Assembly (NCBI GenBank): GCA_028727785.1
Contig: JAQYNQ010000087.1
Coordinates: 4,746-68,745 of the forward strand
Length of the DNA stretch: 64,000 bases
Direction: 5' to 3'
Source of the DNA: Eubacteriaceae bacterium
GTDB taxonomy: Bacteria > Bacillota > Clostridia > Peptostreptococcales > Anaerovoracaceae
Under the pieces are notes generated by a model, which was not told the DNA's origin, did no database searches, and worked only from the letters and a program-made list of their open reading frames with translations. The translations under genes and the position numbers were made by a program. Below are positions 11,598 through 18,797 of the stretch, piece after piece (position 1 is the first letter of the stretch; each line of letters opens with the position of its first letter).

Positions 11598-13721
11598 ATG
11601 GTAATGAGAAGACGATTATTAATTTATGTATTAGCCTTTATTTTAGGAATATCAGTAATGTATACCTATCAGGAAAAAGTTGCCAACAATCCACTTGAAT
11701 ACTATGTAGGTCAGGACGTGAGTATTACCGGTAAAATTACTGAGATTAAACAGAATAATGAAAAATATACCTTTGTTCTGGAAACTGAGGCAGGCCCTGT
11801 ACTCTGTAATTACTATGGTAAATTTGAAGATTACAAGTCAATTCTGTTTGAAGTCTGCGACATAACAGGAACTCTTGATGTACCAAAGTCATCTGGAAAT
11901 CCAAGAACCTTTGACTATGCCTTGTATCTGAAAAGCAAGGGAATAAGGTATATATGCATCCCCTCTGCAGTGAGATTTCATAACACCACTATAACTTATT
12001 ATGATAAATTTAAAAGATGGATATTCCTGGAAAGAGAAAAATTTATTGATAATCTCAAACTTTCTGAGGAGGCTCTTGGTCCCGTAAAAGGAATCCTCTT
12101 TGGAGATACAGGTGAACTTGATGAAGATGTTTATGAGGAGTTTCAAAAAAACTCTACAGCACATATTCTCGCCGTAAGCGGTCTGCATATAGGTGTTTTA
12201 TTCAGTCTTTACAAAGCACTGATGAAGAAAAAGAACAACCGTATATTCACATTGGTCTTCATTATCTTTACACTGATTTATGGTTTTGCTACTTTGTGGT
12301 CCGTTTCTGTTACAAGGGCAATAATGCTCATGTATATTATGATTCTAGCCAATGTGCTGGACCGACGATACGACCTTCTGACAGCAGCCGCATTGGTAGC
12401 GGGTGCTTTTGCACTGAAAAATCCCTATATAATATTCGGCGCAAGCTTTCAGATGTCCTTTCTTGCCGTTTGTTCAATATCCTTCTTTACTCCGATATTT
12501 GAACGAATCCTGCCTGCGAGCATTGCAGGGGCAGCAGCGGTGCAGTTTGGTATGCTGCCATATATGATATACAGTTTTAACGGAATATCAGTGGCAGGGG
12601 TACTTATCAATGTTCCTGTCGTCTATATTATTTCCATTCTTGTGCCGGCAGGGGTAACGGGTTACTTTGTTTTTCTGATAAGTCAGTCCATAATGCCCAT
12701 GATTTCTTTTATATTAGATGCTTTATCAAAACTCACTTTATCCATAAATCATCTCTTTGCATCATGTAACCTGCTGTATATCACGCTTCCGTCTATGAAG
12801 CTGGGAACTCTGCTAATGATATATGGTCTTATGTTTCTTTGCGCATCAGAGTATTTTCAGGTGAACCTGAAGAGAAAGAAATGGAAACATCTCATACTTG
12901 GACTGTGTTTAGTTTTGAGTATATCTCTTGTCGGATGGAAAGTGGATCAGACCCCCTTTGATCAGGCATGTATTGTCTTTTTAGACGTGGGTCAGGGGGA
13001 TTCTGTTCATATAAAAACTGACAGCGGGGGGAGTATTCTTATTGATGGAGGTGGTAATACAAACTATAACGTGGGTTCTAAAATACTGAAACCTTATCTG
13101 CTTAAAAATGGATATGATCAAGTTAATCTGGCTCTTGCAACACATTTGCATACTGATCACTATTTAGGCCTCAGACAGTTGTCTGAGGAATACAATGTGT
13201 TACAGGAAATTCTGACAGGTAAGTCAGGAGATGTTGTTAAGTTGGGTAAAAATGACAGAATCGAAATTTTATGGCCTGAAAAAAAGGCTGATTCTACAAC
13301 CGATAATTCGGCGGATGAAAATACAAACAGCATGATATTTAAAGTGACAGTTCAGGGATTGTCTGTTTTGATAACAGGAGATATAACTATTGAGGGAGAG
13401 AAGATGCTTCTAAGAAAGTACGCAGGAACAGATGTGTTAAAAGCAGATATTCTAAAGGTTGCACATCACGGCAGTGCATACAGCAGCTGTGAGGAATTTA
13501 TAGACGCTGTTAATCCAAAAGTAGCGGTTATTTCTGTAGGAAAAAACAATTACGGACATCCAAGTGATGATGTAATTGAAAAATTCCGGGAAAAAGGTAT
13601 AATTGTATTCAGAACTGATCTGGATGGAGCGGTTGGAATTATTAAGAAAGGTGACAGTTTTTCAGTATGTACAAAAAGAAACCGGAAAAACATGCATTCC
13701 AGGCCTTTGCAGAAGATCTGA
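11598..13721 (+). CDS. comEC: Competence DNA-uptake channel ComEC/Rec2 (OB + competence + metallo-beta-lactamase domains)
   Basis: Motifs HILAVSGLHIG, FLDVGQGD, THLHTDH, LITGDI and KVAHHGS; precedes holA. The true start may be 11604. Confidence 0.93.
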   Translation: MVMRRRLLIYVLAFILGISVMYTYQEKVANNPLEYYVGQDVSITGKITEIKQNNEKYTFVLETEAGPVLCNYYGKFEDYKSILFEVCDITGTLDVPKSSGNPRTFDYALYLKSKGIRYICIPSAVRFHNTTITYYDKFKRWIFLEREKFIDNLKLSEEALGPVKGILFGDTGELDEDVYEEFQKNSTAHILAVSGLHIGVLFSLYKALMKKKNNRIFTLVFIIFTLIYGFATLWSVSVTRAIMLMYIMILANVLDRRYDLLTAAALVAGAFALKNPYIIFGASFQMSFLAVCSISFFTPIFERILPASIAGAAAVQFGMLPYMIYSFNGISVAGVLINVPVVYIISILVPAGVTGYFVFLISQSIMPMISFILDALSKLTLSINHLFASCNLLYITLPSMKLGTLLMIYGLMFLCASEYFQVNLKRKKWKHLILGLCLVLSISLVGWKVDQTPFDQACIVFLDVGQGDSVHIKTDSGGSILIDGGGNTNYNVGSKILKPYLLKNGYDQVNLALATHLHTDHYLGLRQLSEEYNVLQEILTGKSGDVVKLGKNDRIEILWPEKKADSTTDNSADENTNSMIFKVTVQGLSVLITGDITIEGEKMLLRKYAGTDVLKADILKVAHHGSAYSSCEEFIDAVNPKVAVISVGKNNYGHPSDDVIEKFREKGIIVFRTDLDGAVGIIKKGDSFSVCTKRNRKNMHSRPLQKI

Positions 13722-14716
13722 AGGCTGATAGTATAAAAAAAGTAAACCTGATGTATGGGGTTGAGCAGTATCTTGTAAAATGGGCTGTTGAGTCGCTGGT
13801 TAAAAAATATGTGAATGCGGCCTGTAAGTCTATGGACTACGTTGTTCTTGATGAGGATAGTGCCACAGTGGACAGTATAATCGAGGCCTGTGAAACCTTT
13901 TCCATGTTTTCTGAGAAGCGGGTTGTCTGGGTCAGAAACTTTAAACCTTTGACAGGGGATAACGTAAAAGGCTTTGGAAAAAGCTCTCTGGAAAGCCTTT
14001 GCCGGTATATAGAAGCACCAAATGAAGGTACAATTGTTGTATTTTCCGGTGAGGAAATTAAGGAAAGTACCATGGTGGCAAAGACTGTAAAGAAGATGGG
14101 GAGGGCTTATGACTTTTCGCCTCTGGGAAAGGCTGAACTGTCATCGTTCGCAAGGAAACGCTTTAAGGCGGCCGGAGTAGATATTTCCCCAAGACTTCTG
14201 GCTCAGCTTATAGATGCTACAGGATACAATAACAGAGAAAGTGATTACAGGCTGTTTAATTTTGAGAATGACATCGCCAAAATTATTGCCATAAGCAACG
14301 GTGTTTCAATTACAGAAAGGGACATAGAGATGACCGTTTGTGGTGACATGGACACTTTTGTCTTTGATATGCTTGATGGAATAAGCAATGGTCAGAAGGA
14401 TAAAGCATTTGCTGTGTTGTATAATATGCTGAATTCAGGGGTGGACAGCTATACAATAATAGGTGCAATTGTATCTCACTTTGAACTTATGTTGTCTGTG
14501 AAGCAGATGAGAGAAGATGGAACGGATTTAAAAGGGATTCACAGCAGACTTGGCGGCAGCGAATATCGAATAAAAAAGATGATTCCATATACAAATAAGT
14601 ACTCTGCTGATAAACTGAAAAGAACATTATCAGATATTTATGAAGTGGATAGAAATATCAAGACTGGTATTTTGAATGACCAGTTAGCACTGGAAATGTT
14701 TATAGCGCGTATGTAA
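13667..14716 (+). CDS. holA: DNA polymerase III delta subunit
   Basis: Motifs LMYGVEQYL and CETFSMFSEKRVV, C-terminal D.NIKTG...ALE; conserved comEC-holA order. Confidence 0.9.
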   Translation: MYKKKPEKHAFQAFAEDLKADSIKKVNLMYGVEQYLVKWAVESLVKKYVNAACKSMDYVVLDEDSATVDSIIEACETFSMFSEKRVVWVRNFKPLTGDNVKGFGKSSLESLCRYIEAPNEGTIVVFSGEEIKESTMVAKTVKKMGRAYDFSPLGKAELSSFARKRFKAAGVDISPRLLAQLIDATGYNNRESDYRLFNFENDIAKIIAISNGVSITERDIEMTVCGDMDTFVFDMLDGISNGQKDKAFAVLYNMLNSGVDSYTIIGAIVSHFELMLSVKQMREDGTDLKGIHSRLGGSEYRIKKMIPYTNKYSADKLKRTLSDIYEVDRNIKTGILNDQLALEMFIARM

Positions 14717-14758
14717 TAAGCATACATCAAAAAAACAGCAAATAGTTGCAATTTCGAC

Positions 14759-14786
14759 AGAGCGTGGATAATTATTCACGCTCTTT
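14759..14786 (+). terminator. Hairpin after holA (AGAGCGTGG...TCACGCTCT), built from two back-to-back DnaA boxes; possible terminator
   Basis: Imperfect palindrome agagcgtggataattattcacgctct followed by only a short T run. Confidence 0.4.
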
Positions 14787-14999
14787 ACATATGGCAAAAA
14801 ATGTCGGTGAAATCCGAATTAATCTGTGGATAACTTGTGTGTTGACAAAAAATAAAACATGTGTACACGTTGAAAATACAGGGGTATAGGTAAAAAAATT
14901 ATCCACAGTGCCTTGTGGAATTAATTGTATACAATTTAAAAGTTTATGTGAAAAATGTGTGGAAAGCTTAAATTACAAGGGTTTGAGGTGTGTGGAAAA
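14759..14999. promoter_or_regulatory. DnaA-box cluster (2 perfect + about 7 degenerate boxes)
   Basis: Perfect boxes: TGTGGATAA 14825-33 and TTATCCACA 14899-907. Degenerate boxes: CGTGGATAA 14763-71, TTATTCACG 14772-80, TGTTGACAA 14840-48, TGTGGAATT 14914-22, TGTGAAAAA 14947-55, TGTGGAAAG 14958-66, TGTGGAAAA 14991-99. Confidence 0.8.
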
Positions 15000-15151
15000 G
15001 TGATTGGATTTATCTGGAAAATTGAATCTAGCTTTATTAATAAACTAATTTTTTCCGAAAAATACTATTAAAATATTTTATAGAAAATCAACAAAAATAG
15101 GTGAAATATTATGTATACATGACTAAATGTACTTTAATATGTACAATTTTA

Positions 15152-15160
15152 TGGTATAAT
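15152..15160 (+). promoter_or_regulatory. Extended -10 element (TGgTATAAT) for the hydrogenase operon
   Basis: TATAAT 15155-15160 preceded by TG; GGAGG SD before ATG 15193; the -35 element is poor. Confidence 0.55.
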
Positions 15161-15192
15161 TTATAATTAGGAAAGAATTTGGAGGTTTTAGT

Positions 15193-17046
15193 ATGGACAG
15201 ATTATTTATGAAGTCTAAGGATAGAGCCGAGTTTACAGTGGAAGGCTTGTATAAAGATCTTGAAAGAAGAGTCGTATCCAGTCCGGCCGGTCAGTGCCCT
15301 GTGGATATGGCCGCAGCTTTCTTGAGAATGTGTCATGCACAGAGCTGTGGTAAGTGTATTCCATGTCGTGTGGGTTTGGGACAGCTGCAGCTTCTTCTTG
15401 ACAGAATACTGGCTATTGATGGAAATGAAGACTTAAGTATCCTGGTAATTTTAAAGAGAACTGCCGAAGCAATTAGAGTGTCAGCTGACTGTGCTATTGG
15501 TACGGAGGCAGCCGCAATGATTCTTCGCGGTCTGGAAGGATTCAGAAGCGATTATGAATCACACATTTTAAATCACAGCTGTGATGATACAGTAATCAAC
15601 AAGAGACAGGCTGTGCCTTGCAGAGGAGGATGCCCTGCAGGTGTAGATGTACCCGGATATGTATCACTTGTAAGAAATGGAAGATATGATGACGCTGTTA
15701 AACTCATCAGAAAGGATAATCCTTTCCCTTCAGTATGTGCATTAATCTGTGAACATCCATGTGAAGAAAAATGCAGAAGAAATATTATTGATACACCGGT
15801 AAATATCAGGGCAATTAAGAGATTTGCTGTGGATAACTGCTCTGAGACTGTTCAGATTCCTGAAAGAATGGACAGTACCGGAAAGAAAGTTGCTGTTATC
15901 GGAGGAGGACCTTCAGGATTGTCAGCAGCATATTTCCTGTCTATTATGGGACATGATGTAACTGTGTTCGAAAAGAGAGCACAACTTGGCGGTATGCTTA
16001 GATATGGTATACCTAAGTACAGACTTCCTAGAGAAAAGCTGCAGTGGGATATCGATGCTATTGCTGCCGCAGGTGTAGAGTTTAAGACCGATTATGACAT
16101 CAGTTCTGATGAGGCAATTAAGGAGATTAAGGATAACTTTGATGCGGTTTATATCTCAATCGGGTCTCACAACCACAAAAACCTTGGAATTCCGGGAGAA
16201 TATGCAAAGGGTGTTGTCCCTGCAGTAGAGATGCTTCGCAGCATCGGTGACGATGCGATGCCGGACTTTAAGGGTAAGTCAGTTGCTGTAATCGGTGGCG
16301 GTAACGTGGCAATGGATGTAGCAAGAACTGCAAAGAGACTGGGTGCAAGTCAGGTTTCAATTGTTTACAGAAGACGCAGAGATGATATGACTGCTCTTCC
16401 TGATGAAATCAATGGAGCTATTGCTGAGGGATGTGAACTTTTCCAGCTCAAGGCGCCTTCTGAAATCATCGTGGATAAGAGCGGCCATGTAAAGGGACTG
16501 TATGTTCAGCCACAGATTGCATCAGAAGCTGACCGTTCAGGAAGGCCTAAGCCCGTTGATGCGGATCAGCCAAGAGAGAAGATTCCATGTGATATCGTTA
16601 TTTCTGCTATCGGACAGGCTACAGATATTGAATTCTTTGAAAAATATGGAATTCCTGTTTACAGAGGAACAATTAAAGCTGAAAAGAACAGCGTAGTTGA
16701 CAAGGTTCAGGGCATATATGCAGGAGGAGACTGTGTAACAGGACCTTCAACTGTAATTAATGCTATTGCGGCCGGTAAGGTTGCAGCTGCCAATATTGAC
16801 AGTTATCTGGGATATAATCATGAAATATCTGTAGATGTTGAAATTCCTGATCCTGATGTGGAGGACAAGCATCCACGCGGAAGAATTGAGCTTAAAGAAA
16901 GATATGCCGCAGAAAGAGGCGGGGACTTTGAAGCTGTTGAACTTCCAATGACTAGGGAAGAATCACTTGCAGAGTGTTCAAGATGCCTGCGCTGTGACGC
17001 ATGCGGATTCGGATCATTTAGAGGGGGCAGAATAGAAAAATGGTAA
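15193..17046 (+). CDS. NuoF-type 4Fe-4S domain fused to a GltD/PreT-like FAD/NAD(P)H oxidoreductase; hydrogenase partner subunit
   Basis: N-terminal CHAQSCGKCIPCRVG...DCAIG; CRGGCPAG and CEHPCEEKCRR Fe-S motifs; GGGPSG (FAD); GGGNVAMD plus YRRRR (NADP-type); YAGGD; C-terminal CSRCLRCD. Confidence 0.85.
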   Translation: MDRLFMKSKDRAEFTVEGLYKDLERRVVSSPAGQCPVDMAAAFLRMCHAQSCGKCIPCRVGLGQLQLLLDRILAIDGNEDLSILVILKRTAEAIRVSADCAIGTEAAAMILRGLEGFRSDYESHILNHSCDDTVINKRQAVPCRGGCPAGVDVPGYVSLVRNGRYDDAVKLIRKDNPFPSVCALICEHPCEEKCRRNIIDTPVNIRAIKRFAVDNCSETVQIPERMDSTGKKVAVIGGGPSGLSAAYFLSIMGHDVTVFEKRAQLGGMLRYGIPKYRLPREKLQWDIDAIAAAGVEFKTDYDISSDEAIKEIKDNFDAVYISIGSHNHKNLGIPGEYAKGVVPAVEMLRSIGDDAMPDFKGKSVAVIGGGNVAMDVARTAKRLGASQVSIVYRRRRDDMTALPDEINGAIAEGCELFQLKAPSEIIVDKSGHVKGLYVQPQIASEADRSGRPKPVDADQPREKIPCDIVISAIGQATDIEFFEKYGIPVYRGTIKAEKNSVVDKVQGIYAGGDCVTGPSTVINAIAAGKVAAANIDSYLGYNHEISVDVEIPDPDVEDKHPRGRIELKERYAAERGGDFEAVELPMTREESLAECSRCLRCDACGFGSFRGGRIEKW

Positions 17047-18797
17047 ATATTATTATAGACGGAAGAAAAATTTCAGTTCCTGCTGACACTACTATAATGG
17101 AAGCTGCGCAGAAATCCGGTATAGATATTCCGCATCTTTGTTATCTGAAAGAAATTAACGAAATCGGTGCATGCAGAGTTTGCCTTGTAGAAGTGGTCGG
17201 AATGGACAAACTGGTAACAGCCTGCAACACAAAAGTTGAAGAAGGTATGGAAATTCTTACTAACAGTCCTAAGGTTAGAGTTACAAGAAAGATAAATGTT
17301 GAACTTATACTGTCAGACCATGACTGCAAGTGCGTACAATGTGTAAAGAGCGGCAACTGTACTCTTCAGAAAATTGCAAATGATTTAGGTATTATCAGCA
17401 TTCACTATGATAATACTGCAGAAAAGAATCGCTGGGACTTCGAATTACCTCTGATCAGAGAAGCTTCCAAATGCATAAAATGCATGAGATGTGTGCAGAT
17501 TTGCGATAAAGTTCAGGGCTTGAATGTCTGGGACATTAACGGTTCAGGATATAGAACGAATGTTGGGGTTGCAAGAAATAAACCCCTGACAGAAGCGGAT
17601 TGTGCTCTTTGTGGTCAGTGCATAACACATTGTCCTGTAGGTGCCCTGAGAGCTCGTGATGATAGAGACATTATCGGAAGAGTTCTTGCTGACCCTGATA
17701 AAATAACGATGGTTCAGATTGCCCCTGCAGTGAGAACAGCATGGGCTGATGAAATTGGAATGCCTAGAGCAGAAGCTACAACAGGGAAGCTGGTAAGTGC
17801 ACTGCGCAGAATCGGTTTTGATTACATATTTGACACAACATATTCTGCTGACCTTACAATTATGGAAGAAGGTTCAGAATTCATTGACAGATTCACTCAT
17901 AAGAATCAGTACAGCTGGCCTATGTTTACATCCTGCTGTCCGGGATGGGTAAGATTTGTAAAGACTCAGTATCCGGAATATGTAAAGAATCTGTCTACTG
18001 CAAAGTCTCCTCAGCAGATGTTTGGTGCAATGTCAAAGACTTTTATTGCAAATAAGCTTGGCGTTGATCCGGAAAAGATTTACTCTGTTTCAATTATGCC
18101 ATGCGTATCAAAAAAATATGAGCATAATGTTGAGGCTGTTAATGATGCAGGCCACGGTAAAGATGTTGACCTTGTATTAACCACAAGGGAACTTGCCAGA
18201 ATGATTCGTGCTGACTATATTAAGCCTTCCGATTTAAAAGAAGAAGCTTTTGATCAGATCTTCGGAGAAGGTTCAGGTGCAGGAGTTATCTTTGGGACCA
18301 CAGGCGGTGTAATGGAAGCTGCACTGAGAAGTGCATATTACCTGGTAACAGGTGAGAATCCGGAACCAGACAGCTTCAAGAGCGTAAGAGGATTGGACGG
18401 CTGGAAAGAAGCCACATTTGATATCAAGGGTCTTCAGGTTAAGGTAGCAGTGGCTAGCGGTCTTGGCAATGCAAGAAAGCTGATGGATGCTATTAAAGCC
18501 GGTAAAGTTAAGTATGACTTTGTTGAGATTATGGCTTGCCCCGGTGGATGTGTCGGGGGAGGAGGTCAGCCTATGAAGGACGGAAAGGAATTCGCCGGCA
18601 TAAGAGGAGAAGCTTTATATGGCCTTGACAAGTTCTCTGACTTAAGATTTTCACATGAAAATACTGCTGTTCAGCTGACATATGAAGAGTTCCTTGGAGA
18701 ACCAAATTCCCCTAGAGCTCATGAACTGTTACATACAGAGCTTGAAAACTGGTCAGTTGAAATGAATAGAGAAGACAAACATTTAGATATTATTTAA
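17040..18797 (+). CDS. hydA: [FeFe]-hydrogenase catalytic subunit, group A (2Fe-2S, His-ligated 4Fe-4S, 2x4Fe-4S, H-cluster)
   Basis: H-cluster motifs FTSCCPGW, MPCVSKKYE and EIMACPGGCVGGGGQP; ferredoxin motifs CIKCMRC and CALCGQC. Confidence 0.95.
   Translation: MVNIIIDGRKISVPADTTIMEAAQKSGIDIPHLCYLKEINEIGACRVCLVEVVGMDKLVTACNTKVEEGMEILTNSPKVRVTRKINVELILSDHDCKCVQCVKSGNCTLQKIANDLGIISIHYDNTAEKNRWDFELPLIREASKCIKCMRCVQICDKVQGLNVWDINGSGYRTNVGVARNKPLTEADCALCGQCITHCPVGALRARDDRDIIGRVLADPDKITMVQIAPAVRTAWADEIGMPRAEATTGKLVSALRRIGFDYIFDTTYSADLTIMEEGSEFIDRFTHKNQYSWPMFTSCCPGWVRFVKTQYPEYVKNLSTAKSPQQMFGAMSKTFIANKLGVDPEKIYSVSIMPCVSKKYEHNVEAVNDAGHGKDVDLVLTTRELARMIRADYIKPSDLKEEAFDQIFGEGSGAGVIFGTTGGVMEAALRSAYYLVTGENPEPDSFKSVRGLDGWKEATFDIKGLQVKVAVASGLGNARKLMDAIKAGKVKYDFVEIMACPGGCVGGGGQPMKDGKEFAGIRGEALYGLDKFSDLRFSHENTAVQLTYEEFLGEPNSPRAHELLHTELENWSVEMNREDKHLDII

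What the first reader, a model, noticed from the sequence alone, without database searches (positions are those of the whole stretch)
14717..15192. Dense DnaA-box cluster far from any dnaA gene, with no strand switch: datA/DBC-like titration site or DnaA-controlled hydrogenase promoter
Seen: about nine DnaA-box-like 9-mers within about 240 bp, two of them perfect and one back-to-back pair. A second 15-mer occurs twice with 12/15 identity (TGAAAATACAGGGGT 14871-85; TTAAATTACAAGGGT 14968-82), each copy shortly before a DnaA box. A very AT-rich stretch (about 15030-15180) leads into the hydrogenase promoter. Genes on both sides keep the same + orientation, and dnaA/dnaN are not nearby. Established: E. 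coli datA/DARS and B. subtilis non-origin DnaA-box clusters regulate initiation, and DnaA also acts as a transcription factor. Inference: this is a clostridial initiation-control locus placed where rpsT usually follows holA. Alternatively, it couples the NAD(P)H/H2 redox operon to the DnaA state.
Basis: partly seen in the sequence, partly recalled or inferred. Interest (0 to 1): 0.66.

Follow-up and report, generated by a model that had tools for sequence, protein, structure and literature searches.

The report
Conserved non-origin DnaA-box module
The gap between holA and the hydrogenase genes holds a rigidly built 185-bp cluster of binding sites for the replication initiator DnaA; it is not the replication origin, is kept in about 93% of genomes of this bacterial family whatever genes lie beside it, and is most likely a site that controls DnaA itself.

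Summary
Window 14821-15001 holds two perfect DnaA boxes, one 1-mismatch box and at least three 2-mismatch boxes. A further box sits in the holA terminator hairpin. This is the densest box cluster in the 1.93-Mb draft genome.

It is not oriC. dnaA and dnaN lie on another contig, with a GC-skew flip and a textbook unwinding module (boxes, GCCCC, TAC trios, AT tract). The window shows no skew change.

The cluster is one copy of a homologous module of about 185 bp. A sequence model finds it full-length in 140 of 151 Anaerovoracaceae genomes (112 of 121 genera). A weaker version occurs in one sister family. Box-to-box distances are almost invariant, and an invariant palindrome AATTGTATACAATT sits between two boxes.

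The flanking genes differ: hydB in Emergencia, an alaX-like gene in most genera, and convergent gene ends in some. The module points with replication in 14-15 of 15 placements. Larger genomes carry more, diverged copies.

Best reading (0.5): an autonomous DnaA-assembly locus of the B. subtilis DBC / E. coli datA-DARS kind, with local promoter effects. Main rival (0.3): a DnaA-responsive promoter cassette that controls hydBA here.

The scan has noted other non-origin DnaA-box clusters in Clostridia, but none with this sequence.

The parts
14821..15001 (+). Whole conserved DnaA-box module (about 185 bp; + is the module orientation used throughout)
   Evidence: BLAST in relatives. nhmmer finds two copies in the own genome, here and at C111:20494-20675 on the - strand. 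Sequence-only model R1 matches positions 3-185 in 140 of 151 family genomes.
14760..14783 (+). holA terminator hairpin GAGCGTG-GATAATTATT-CACGCTC. It is built from two inverted DnaA-box-like halves and contains the 1-mismatch box at 14763-14771 (-).
   Evidence: The stem changes in a compensatory way in L003, L004 and L005, and a T-run follows it there. It is present only in the species where holA is adjacent.
14825..14833 (-). Box 1, a perfect DnaA box (TGTGGATAA on the + strand)
   Evidence: Invariant in the genus alignment. No mismatch in 71 of 83 family modules.
14840..14848 (-). TGTTGACAA, a weak 2-mismatch box. It contains TTGACA (14842-14847); the reverse complement TTGTCA is -35-like for a leftward promoter with Box 1 in its spacer.
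   Evidence: Alignments. In sister family f8 a TGTTGATAA box lies about here. The leftward promoter pattern occurs in 26 of 78 modules and is weak in this window. The motif is absent from the copies in G113.
14871..14885 (+). It lies on the conserved TTGAAAtttCAA / nGTTGAAA motif.
14899..14907 (+). Box 2, a perfect DnaA box and the only strong box in + orientation
   Evidence: It sits at a fixed offset of -25 from the palindrome in 81 of 82 modules.
14914..14922 (-). Box 3 (TGTGGAATT; TGTGGATAA in most of the family). It faces Box 2 across a 6-bp gap.
   Evidence: The start-to-start distance from Box 2 to Box 3 is 15 bp in 66 of 67 modules. Orientation is the same as boxes I/II of E. coli DARS1, where the gap is 5 bp.
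14923..14936 (.). Perfect palindrome AATTGTATACAATT, the most conserved element of the module. Each half (TGTATACAA) matches the DnaA box consensus TGTGGATAA at 6 of 9 positions and starts 3 bp after Box 3.
   Evidence: Invariant columns. It occurs only twice in the genome, both times inside the two modules. It is not conserved in sister family f8.
14947..14955 (-). Box 4 (TGTGAAAAA here; TGTGGATAA or TGTGGAAAA in most of the family)
   Evidence: It starts 33-34 bp after Box 3. In reverse complement, TTCACA-17-TACAAT is a 10/12 promoter-like match on the - strand.
14958..14966 (-). Box 5 (TGTGGAAAG), 11 bp after Box 4
14968..14982 (+). It lies on the semi-conserved CCYTTGAAAAAT motif.
   Evidence: I tested it as a covarying hairpin and did not find that supported.
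14991..14999 (-). Box 6 (TGTGGAAAA; TGTTGAAAA in most of the family)
   Evidence: It starts 43-45 bp after Box 4 in 78 of 81 modules.
15030..15180 (+). AT-rich leader (82.8% A+T). It contains the hydB core promoter TGTACA-16-TATAAT (15140-15167) and a GTATAC-core palindrome ATGTATACAT (15111-15120). It is not part of the conserved module.
   Evidence: It is alignable only in the three closest relatives. The GTATAC motif recurs about 45-50 bp upstream of the -10 element in roughly 9 of 13 Emergencia species.
15193..18797 (+). Downstream operon: a 617-aa NAD(P)-binding Fe-S flavoprotein (hydB-like) and a group A6 NADH-dependent [FeFe] hydrogenase (585 aa)
   Evidence: Pfam. NCBIfam NF009410 and NF040763.

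Best explanation
The spacer carries one copy of a family-wide, non-origin DnaA-assembly module. I propose the following mechanism.

DnaA binds the two perfect boxes (Box 1 and Box 2). From them it fills the weaker, co-oriented boxes 3-6, whose spacing is fixed. [quoted passage not shown] The oligomer is bent or bridged at the invariant palindrome, either by an unknown dimeric protein or by DnaA itself.

The primary role of this complex is to hold or modify DnaA away from oriC, and so to tune replication initiation. This is what the B. subtilis DnaA-box clusters and E. coli datA/DARS do. Like the B. subtilis clusters, it probably also influences whichever promoters lie beside it; in this genome that is possibly hydBA.

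Shown here: the boxes, their significance, that the site is not an origin, the conservation, the fixed geometry, the independence from gene context, the polarity, and the trend of copy number with genome size.

Inferred: DnaA occupancy, the effect on initiation, and the partner that binds the palindrome.
For: 1. This is the densest cluster of boxes with at most one mismatch in the genome. The Poisson probability is 1.8e-6.

2. The true origin is elsewhere. dnaA and dnaN are on C64, where GC skew flips from -0.22 to +0.18. Their spacer holds boxes, GCCCC, TACTACTATTACTAC and an AT tract.

3. The module is found full-length in 140 of 151 family genomes and 112 of 121 genera. In the order-wide sample it is in 17 of 18 genomes of the family, in 4 of 6 of sister family f8 at low score, and almost nowhere else in the order.

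4. Box spacing is nearly invariant while the spacers diverge. Box 2 to Box 3 is 15 bp in 66 of 67 modules, Box 3 to Box 4 is 33-34 bp, and Box 4 to Box 6 is 43-45 bp. Family f8 keeps the box scaffold but not the palindrome.

5. The module is kept in unrelated contexts:
- alaX-like and an unknown 420-aa gene;
- AraC-like or DUF4282-like genes;
- holA and hydB;
- holA and convergent recN, without hydBA (G001);
- between convergent genes (C111 in this genome).

6. The promoter-like features are not universal. The leftward promoter pattern occurs in 26 of 78 modules and the rightward P2 promoter in 11 of 84. The boxes are universal.

7. The ten copies examined in G113 have diverged in their spacers but keep every box. 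Copy number rises with genome size: mean about 1.1 below 2 Mb and 4.25 above 3.1 Mb, Spearman 0.23, p = 0.005.

8. The layout resembles known DnaA control loci.
- Minimal datA is 183 bp, with co-oriented boxes around a second protein's site and optimised spacing (PMC5742627).
- The DARS1 core is (+)-N5-(-)-N3-(-) (PMC6868365). The module has (+)-N6-(-)-N3-(-).
- B. subtilis DnaA-box clusters repress initiation and also regulate neighbouring genes (PMC3245932).
Against:
- The module lies 8-45% of the chromosome away from dnaA. B. subtilis clusters and datA work best near the origin.
- Its strict co-orientation with replication is not expected for a passive sink. It fits better with an embedded promoter or with an interaction with the replication fork.
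- In its commonest context, Box 1 lies exactly in the spacer of a promoter-like element facing the alaX-like gene. A LexA-type operator with a -35 element flanks the other end. The ancestral locus therefore looks like a divergent promoter region.
- In Emergencia the module has stayed upstream of hydB in at least 13 species.
- The copy-number trend is not corrected for phylogeny.
Confidence: 0.5

Rival explanations
1. The module is a DnaA-responsive promoter/operator cassette. Its job is transcriptional: it couples adjacent genes to replication status through DnaA acting as a transcription factor. In this genome those genes are the hydB-hydA hydrogenase operon; elsewhere they are the alaX-like gene and AraC-like or DUF4282-like genes. 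Any effect on initiation would be incidental.
For: - In at least 13 Emergencia species the module lies upstream of hydB, whatever gene is on its left.
- In the commonest family context, Box 1 lies in the spacer of a leftward promoter-like element, TTGTCA-N18-(T/G)ATTTT, that faces the alaX-like gene.
- At the right end, a -35 element overlapped by a LexA-type operator precedes AraC-like or DUF4282-like genes, with TTGACA-N17-TACAAT in several genera.
- The - strand of the window has TTCACA-17-TACAAT, a 10/12 match.
- New copies in G113 mostly lie upstream of co-directional genes, and the module is co-oriented with replication, as promoters usually are.
- A GTATAC-core motif that resembles the module's palindrome recurs at about -55 of the hydB promoter.
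- B. subtilis DnaA-box clusters do regulate neighbouring genes (PMC3245932).
Against: - No box overlaps the hydB core promoter. The distance from module to hydB varies from 170 to 320 bp, and the sequence between them is not conserved.
- The module persists between convergent genes and where hydBA is missing.
- The downstream genes have no common function.
- The promoter hexamers are much less conserved than the boxes.
- TTGACA is absent from the G113 copies.
Confidence: 0.3
2. The module is a polar element linked to the replication fork. When the lagging-strand template is single-stranded, the inverted boxes (Box 2/3, Box 1/2, and the holA hairpin) would fold into hairpins that carry a DnaA box. 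These could act as a DnaA-dependent helicase-loading or restart site, like the 'A-site' of the ABC primosome on E. coli plasmids. (That system is cited from my own knowledge and was not checked in a paper here.)
For: - The module's orientation matches the replication direction in 14-15 of 15 placements in complete or nearly complete genomes. It also does so in 8 of 9 G113 copies, judged by local GC skew.
- Box 2 and Box 3 form an inverted repeat with a fixed 6-bp loop.
- Box 1 with CTT and AAG with Box 2 form a 12-bp inverted repeat.
Against: - Hairpins made from inverted repeats can form on either strand, so they do not explain the polarity.
- Box 3 is degenerate in many species. RNAalifold, used as a proxy for strand folding, predicts no conserved pairing.
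- No such system is known in Firmicutes.
- One site per chromosome would be of little use for replication restart.
Confidence: 0.06
3. The module is a small non-coding RNA gene or cis-regulatory RNA leader of about 110-190 nt, and its conserved motifs only look like DnaA boxes.
For: - The length is fixed, there is typically one copy per genome, and conservation spans the family.
- A -35-like TTGACA lies upstream.
- Some species have a terminator-like hairpin with a T-run between Box 5 and Box 6.
Against: - No Rfam match at E <= 1.
- RNAalifold gives an open chain (0 kcal/mol) on both strands for 84 sequences.
- Variation between TTATCCACA and TTTTCCACA in Box 1 and Box 2 is independent, not compensatory.
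- The candidate hairpin is missing in many species.
- The conserved islands are exactly the DnaA box consensus, which this organism uses at its own oriC.
Confidence: 0.03
4. The module is a second or displaced chromosomal origin, or a relic origin of an integrated replicon.
For: DnaA boxes are followed by an 83% A+T tract in this window.
Against: - GC skew stays positive on both sides of the site.
- There are no DnaA-trios and no GC cluster next to the boxes, whereas the dnaA-dnaN spacer on C64 has them.
- The AT tract is not conserved.
- The flanking genes are housekeeping genes.
- Up to 11 copies occur per genome.
Confidence: 0.02

Closest known systems
Bacillus subtilis non-oriC DnaA-box clusters (DBCs: gcp-ydiF, yqeG-sda, ywlC-ywlB, ywcI-vpr, yydA-yycS, thdF-jag; Okumura et al. 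2012, PMC3245932)
   Same: It is an intergenic cluster of consensus and near-consensus DnaA boxes outside oriC in a Firmicute. A dual role is expected, as a sink or negative regulator of initiation and as an operator for neighbouring genes. The number of copies appears to matter.
   Different: The B. subtilis clusters share only their boxes, and most lie near the origin. Here a single homologous module of about 185 bp is conserved in 112 of 121 genera. It has nearly invariant box spacing and an invariant palindrome, a fixed orientation relative to replication, and a position 8-45% of the chromosome away from dnaA.
E. coli datA (DDAH locus; minimal 183 bp: boxes 7, 2 and 3 plus one IHF site; PMC5742627)
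   Same: The size is similar. Co-oriented boxes (3-6 here) have optimised, conserved spacing. A non-DnaA-type site (the palindrome) lies between two boxes. The location is intergenic, often downstream of converging genes.
   Different: There is no IHF consensus, and the factor that binds the palindrome is unknown. An oppositely oriented strong box (Box 2) is part of the core. The module is not close to the origin. ATP hydrolysis is untested.
E. coli DARS1/DARS2 core (boxes I-III; PMC6868365)
   Same: Both have three boxes in the order (+), (-), (-). Boxes I and II face each other, and box III follows box II after 3 bp. DARS1 reads TTATCCACT-N5-TGTGGATAA-N3-TGTGTATTA. The module reads TTATCCACA-N6-TGTGGAWWA-N3-TGTATACAA.
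   Different: - The I-II gap is 6 bp, not 5 bp.
- The 'box III' is only a 6/9 match and is one half of a perfect palindrome.
- In DARS1 the perfect box is box II; here it is the box at position I.
- The DnaA residue equivalent to E. coli Gln208 is Asn, and Leu290 is Met.
- B. subtilis DnaA is reported to exchange nucleotide quickly without such a site (my own knowledge, not checked here).
Firmicutes oriC basal unwinding system (dnaA-dnaN spacer)
   Same: It uses the same TTATCCACA-type boxes.
   Different: The module has no GC cluster, no DnaA-trios, no conserved AT-rich unwinding element and no GC-skew flip. All of these are present at this genome's real origin on contig C64.

Membership tests
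Chromosomal origin oriC (Firmicutes type) | GC-skew sign change at the site | tested here: not met
   Skew stays between +0.05 and +0.22 on both sides of 14.7-15.2 kb and along nearly all of contig C87. The flip occurs on C64 at dnaA.
Chromosomal origin oriC (Firmicutes type) | DnaA boxes followed by a GC cluster, DnaA-trios and an AT-rich unwinding element | tested here: not met
   The module has none of these. The dnaA-dnaN spacer has GTTATCCACAATATCCACA, then GCCCC, TACTACTATTACTAC and an AT tract.
Chromosomal origin oriC (Firmicutes type) | Adjacency to dnaA/dnaN | tested here: not met
   dnaA is at C64:~62.8-64.2 kb, a different contig. In complete relatives the module lies 0.13-1.24 Mb from dnaA.
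B. subtilis-type non-origin DnaA-box cluster (DBC) | Significant cluster of consensus or near-consensus DnaA boxes outside oriC | tested here: met
   Four boxes with at most one mismatch in 240 bp against 0.08 expected. It is the top cluster of the genome.
B. subtilis-type non-origin DnaA-box cluster (DBC) | Stable DnaA occupancy in vivo, and earlier or excess initiation when deleted | not testable with these tools
   This needs ChIP and marker-frequency analysis.
B. subtilis-type non-origin DnaA-box cluster (DBC) | Location near the origin (typical, not strictly defining) | tested here: not met
   The distance from dnaA is 8-45% of the chromosome in complete or nearly complete relatives.
E. 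coli datA | Co-oriented boxes with fixed intervals flanking a binding site for a bending protein (IHF) | tested here: inconclusive
   Boxes 3-6 are co-oriented with nearly invariant spacing, and an invariant palindrome lies between Box 3 and Box 4. I saw no IHF consensus, and the binder is unknown.
E. coli datA | Stimulation of DnaA-ATP hydrolysis | not testable with these tools
   This is a biochemical assay. The arginine finger R285 and sensor-2 R334 equivalents are present in this genome's DnaA.
E. coli DARS | Three-box core: boxes I and II head-to-head with a 5-bp gap, box III 3 bp after box II in the same direction | tested here: inconclusive
   The orientation pattern and the 3-bp gap are matched. 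The I-II gap is 6 bp in 66 of 67 modules, against 5 bp in DARS1. The third site matches the box consensus at only 6 of 9 positions.
E. coli DARS | ADP release from DnaA, dependent on Gln208 and Leu290 | tested here: inconclusive
   The equivalent residues are Asn and Met. The activity itself cannot be tested here.
DnaA-regulated promoter | DnaA box overlapping or directly flanking the core promoter of the regulated gene | tested here: inconclusive
   No box lies at the hydB promoter (15140-15167); the nearest box ends at 14999. A leftward promoter-like element with Box 1 in its spacer is present in 26 of 78 modules and is weak in this window.
Structured non-coding RNA | Rfam match or conserved, covarying secondary structure | tested here: not met
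   No Rfam match at E <= 1 apart from one chance snoRNA hit inside hydB. The RNAalifold consensus is an open chain on both strands.

The most novel reading that the evidence does not exclude
The module could be a catalytic control site for DnaA in Clostridia, and not merely a sink. The invariant triplet Box 2(+)-N6-Box 3(-)-N3-palindrome would force a DARS-like head-to-head DnaA contact. The co-oriented boxes 4-6 would form a datA-like filament. An unknown protein that binds the palindrome would switch the complex between charging and discharging DnaA. The fixed orientation relative to replication would couple this switch to passage of the fork. If so, this would be the first DARS/datA-type system in Firmicutes, in an order where no YabA was detected above the Pfam cut-off (0 of 151 genomes).
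Probability: 0.15. Interest if true: 0.8.

Novelty: new variant of a known kind. Interest (0 to 1): 0.55.

Why it matters
How Clostridia time replication initiation is largely unknown. They lack Hda and SeqA, and I detected no YabA in this order. This module is a sharply defined candidate control locus. It is about 185 bp long, present in about 93% of Anaerovoracaceae genomes, and has fixed geometry. It also occurs in cultured species (Emergencia timonensis, Ihubacter), so deletion, inversion, ChIP and in vitro DnaA assays are feasible. Its invariant palindrome points to an unidentified partner protein. Its polarity and the rise of copy number with genome size are properties not reported for the B. 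subtilis clusters. If the module instead controls hydBA, it would link H2/NADH redox metabolism to replication status.

Tried and rejected
- **oriC or a second origin.** Rejected on GC skew, the missing trios and unwinding element, and the presence of a canonical origin on C64.
- **RNA element.** The Rfam E-value scan found nothing relevant. RNAalifold on 84 modules gave no structure on either strand.
- **Covarying hairpin or terminator between Box 5 and Box 6.** It looked promising in a few species (for example CCCTAAAATTAGGG followed by a T-run) but is absent in many. It is better read as a semi-conserved CCYTTGAAAAAT motif.
- **Rightward promoter from the conserved TTGACA.** The -10 position is poorly conserved, TTGACA is missing in the G113 copies, and f8 has a DnaA box about there.
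- **Palindrome as operator of a regulon.** The perfect 14-mer occurs only in the two modules of this genome.
- **Recent mobile element (MITE-like).** The G113 copies have diverged in their spacers, and the aligned flanks show no shared sequence beyond the module.
- **Complementary distribution with YabA.** YabA is not detected above the cut-off anywhere in the order, so the test is uninformative.
- **Function of the neighbouring 400-430-aa protein.** No hit in Pfam, NCBIfam or PDB sequences.
- **Earlier scan findings by sequence.** No look-alike of this module.
- **Literature.** I found no paper on DnaA boxes in Anaerovoracaceae or Emergencia.
Full report
**1. What is in the window**

The 476-bp spacer 14717-15192 lies between holA (DNA polymerase III delta, 13667-14716, +) and a two-gene hydrogenase operon. 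The operon encodes a 617-aa NAD(P)-binding Fe-S flavoprotein (15193-17046) and a group A6 NADH-dependent [FeFe] hydrogenase (17040-18797). comEC lies upstream of holA. recN and argR follow on the - strand.

| Element | Coordinates | Strand | Sequence or quality |
|---|---|---|---|
| Box in holA hairpin | 14763-14771 | - | 1 mismatch |
| Box 1 | 14825-14833 | - | perfect |
| Weak site | 14840-14848 | - | TGTTGACAA |
| Weak site | 14868-14876 | - | CGTTGAAAA |
| Box 2 | 14899-14907 | + | perfect |
| Box 3 | 14914-14922 | - | 2 mismatches |
| Box 4 | 14947-14955 | - | 2 mismatches |
| Box 5 | 14958-14966 | - | 2 mismatches |
| Box 6 | 14991-14999 | - | 1 mismatch |

The two 15-mers match at 12 of 15 positions, and 15030-15180 is 82.8% A+T.

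Counting boxes with at most one mismatch, this is the densest 300-bp cluster in the whole 1.93-Mb, 137-contig genome. Four boxes in 240 bp compare with 0.08 expected, a Poisson probability of 1.8e-6.

**2. It is not the origin**

- dnaA is on contig C64, followed by dnaN and recF. rnpA lies upstream on the opposite strand.
- GC skew on C64 flips from about -0.22 to +0.18 exactly there.
- The dnaA-dnaN spacer reads GTTATCCACAATATCCACA, then GCCCC, TACTACTATTACTAC and an AT-rich tract. This is the standard Firmicutes unwinding module.
- In the window, GC skew stays positive on both sides of the cluster. No trios or GC cluster follow any box.
- The AT-rich tract can be aligned only in the three closest relatives.

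**3. The cluster is one copy of a conserved module**

BLAST against relatives showed that about 180 bp (14821-15001) is conserved at roughly 70% identity across the genus. It also revealed a second copy in the same genome, at C111:20494-20675 on the - strand. That copy is 77% identical and lies between the 3' ends of two convergent genes.

Record titles of loci encoding close hydB relatives place the organism in Emergencia (Anaerovoracaceae, formerly Clostridiales Family XIII).

Seventeen genus-level copies align with almost no insertions or deletions. The invariant islands are the DnaA boxes and a perfect palindrome, AATTGTATACAATT. A sequence-only covariance model built from this alignment gave these results:

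- Full-length matches (model positions about 3-185) in 140 of 151 sampled genomes of the family and 112 of 121 genera.
- The usual number is one copy. Twenty-four genomes have two, and a few have 3-11.
- In a sample of the order, 17 of 18 genomes of the family matched. Four of six genomes of one sister family (f8) matched at low score. Almost nothing else matched.
- The f8 versions keep boxes 1, 2, 3, 4 and 6 at the same positions but not the palindrome. The DnaA-box scaffold is therefore the older feature.

**4. Geometry**

In 83 modules the start-to-start distances are as follows:

| Interval | Distance | Note |
|---|---|---|
| Box 1 to Box 2 | 73-75 bp | |
| Box 2 to Box 3 | 15 bp in 66 of 67 | 6-bp gap; the two boxes face each other |
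| Box 3 to Box 4 | 33-34 bp | |
| Box 4 to Box 6 | 43-45 bp | |

Boxes 1, 3, 4, 5 and 6 share one orientation. Box 2 is the only strong box in the other.

The palindrome starts directly after Box 3. Its half TGTATACAA matches the box consensus TGTGGATAA at 6 of 9 positions and begins 3 bp after Box 3.

For comparison I read E. coli DARS1 from MG1655. It is TTATCCACT-N5-TGTGGATAA-N3-TGTGTATTA, the head-to-head I/II pair plus box III described in PMC6868365. The module core is TTATCCACA-N6-TGTGGAWWA-N3-TGTATACAA. The order and orientation are the same, the first gap is one base longer, and the third site is weaker.

Minimal datA is 183 bp. It has co-oriented boxes with optimised spacing around an IHF site (PMC5742627). 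Boxes 3-6 and the palindrome resemble that layout. I saw no IHF consensus.

**5. Gene context**

- **Commonest family context.** An alaX-like gene (tRNA_SAD and DHHA1 domains) diverges from the Box 1 end. An unknown 390-430-aa gene converges on the other end. Each occurs in 14 of 30 loci and in five complete or nearly complete genomes.
- **Other genera.** An AraC-like gene or a DUF4282-like membrane-protein gene lies to the right.
- **Emergencia.** At least 13 species have the module upstream of hydB. holA is on the left in only some of them. In G001 the module lies between holA and convergent recN, with no hydrogenase there.
- **This genome.** The alaX-like gene and the unknown gene are on other contigs, without a module.
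- **G113.** At least ten copies precede unrelated genes: a permease, MoeA, a CobW-like GTPase, an acetyltransferase, a GH18/SLH protein and a Kelch-repeat protein. These copies have diverged in their spacers but keep every box and the palindrome. Each copy therefore looks to be under selection and not recently spread.

**6. Polarity and copy number**

I used the dnaA position and strand in complete or nearly complete genomes (G012, G043, G115, G139 with two copies, G133, G166 with four, G162, G138 and G134; G055 is ambiguous). The module's orientation equals the direction of replication in 14-15 of 15 placements. This holds even where both neighbouring genes are on the lagging strand.

In G113, 8 of 9 copies agree with the local GC skew. 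These events are not all independent, but the multi-copy genomes add independent cases. I have no firm explanation. An embedded co-directional promoter or an interaction with the fork are the obvious options.

Copy number rises with genome size. The mean is about 1.1 below 2 Mb and 4.25 above 3.1 Mb (Spearman 0.23, p = 0.005; not corrected for phylogeny).

**7. Promoter-like features**

- The hydB core promoter is TGTACA-16-TATAAT at 15140-15167, about 140 bp beyond Box 6. The distance from module to hydB varies from 170 to 320 bp among species.
- A leftward element, TTGTCA-N18-(T/G)ATTTT, with Box 1 in its spacer occurs in 26 of 78 modules. It is weak in this window.
- At the right end of the family-typical module lies GAACA-N3-GGTT(G/T)ACATAA. 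It has the same form as the operator upstream of this genome's own lexA (CGAACAAGTGTTTAC) and is present in 41 of 84 modules. A complete -35/-10 pair is seen in only 11 of 84. Emergencia hydB copies lack this part.
- The promoter elements are contextual, whereas the boxes are universal.

**8. RNA readings**

Rfam gave nothing relevant. RNAalifold on 84 modules predicts an open chain on both strands. Variation between TTATCCACA and TTTTCCACA in Box 1 and Box 2 is independent, not compensatory.

**9. Interpretation**

The evidence best fits an autonomous DnaA-assembly locus of the kind known from B. subtilis (DnaA-box clusters that restrain initiation and also regulate neighbours; PMC3245932) and from E. 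coli (datA, DARS). I put this at 0.5.

The main rival, at 0.3, is that the module is chiefly a DnaA-responsive operator for flanking promoters, here hydBA. The points in its favour are:
- the long association with hydB in Emergencia;
- the divergent-promoter look of the ancestral locus;
- the polarity;
- a GTATAC-core motif at about -55 of the hydB promoter in roughly 9 of 13 species, which echoes the module's palindrome.

As with the B. subtilis clusters, both roles may hold.

A DARS/datA-like catalytic role is the most novel reading not excluded (about 0.15). This genome's DnaA keeps the arginine finger and sensor 2, but it has Asn and Met at the positions of E. coli Gln208 and Leu290.

**10. 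Novelty**

I found no paper on DnaA boxes in this family. Earlier notes of this scan describe conserved non-origin DnaA-box clusters in other Clostridia and DARS-like loci in Proteobacteria. A look-up by sequence found no look-alike of this module.

It is a new variant of a known kind. Its distinguishing features are a homologous, family-wide module with rigid geometry, an invariant palindrome, replication polarity, and dispersal in large genomes.

Noticed in passing
Family-typical modules, e.g. L119, L108, L145 (right end, about 15-45 bp beyond Box 6); own lexA upstream at G000:C63 ~1200-1250: The right end of most family modules carries GAACA-N3-GGTT(G/T)ACATAA. This is a LexA-type operator overlapping a -35 element, of the same form as the operator upstream of this genome's own lexA (CGAACAAGTGTTTAC). 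The DnaA cluster is therefore often joined to a promoter that is probably SOS-controlled. In some genera that promoter drives a DUF4282-like membrane protein or an AraC-like gene. The Emergencia hydB copies lack it.
   Followed up: partly
G000:C101:1648-2853 (- strand) and L114, L126, L183, L184, L188-L190: A conserved 390-430-aa protein converges on the module in many genera. It has no hit in Pfam, NCBIfam or PDB sequences. It could be functionally linked to the module or merely syntenic.
   Followed up: partly
window 15111-15120 and the equivalent positions in L003-L017: A GTATAC-core palindrome (ATGTATACAT here) lies about 45-50 bp upstream of the hydB -10 element in roughly 9 of 13 Emergencia species. 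It has the same core as the module's invariant palindrome, so one factor might bind both.
   Followed up: partly
window 14760-14783: The holA terminator hairpin is built from two inverted DnaA-box-like halves (CGTGGATAA / TTATTCACG). Its stem shows compensatory changes in the close relatives L003-L005.
   Followed up: partly
G000:C64 ~62.0-64.4 kb (L023 4400-6330): This is the canonical origin. GC skew flips here, boxes lie upstream of dnaA, and the dnaA-dnaN spacer holds two adjacent boxes, GCCCC, five TAC/TAT trios and an AT tract.
   Followed up: yes
G000 DnaA (L023:4759-6180): In the DNA-binding domain, this DnaA has His-Tyr where E. coli has Asp433-His434, which are base-contacting residues as I recall from the literature. 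This may relate to the frequent TGTTGAAAA (TTTTCAACA) box variant in this family.
   Followed up: no
G113 (L134-L142), G136, G166: Large genomes of the family carry 5-11 diverged copies of the module upstream of unrelated genes. Copy number correlates weakly with genome size (Spearman 0.23, p = 0.005).
   Followed up: partly
Order-wide sample (151 genomes): The Pfam YabA family (PF06156) was not detected above its cut-off in any sampled genome of the order, including this one.
   Followed up: partly
G000:C52:2615-2648: Two perfect DnaA boxes lie in inverted orientation 16 bp apart (TTATCCACA-N16-TGTGGATAA). I did not examine the context.
   Followed up: no
G000:C133:20788-22008 and the left flank of the module in most genera: An alaX-like gene (tRNA_SAD plus DHHA1 domains, about 400-420 aa) is the most conserved neighbour of the module and diverges from Box 1. 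Several B. subtilis DnaA-box clusters also flank tRNA-modification genes (ywlC, gcp, thdF; my own knowledge).
   Followed up: partly
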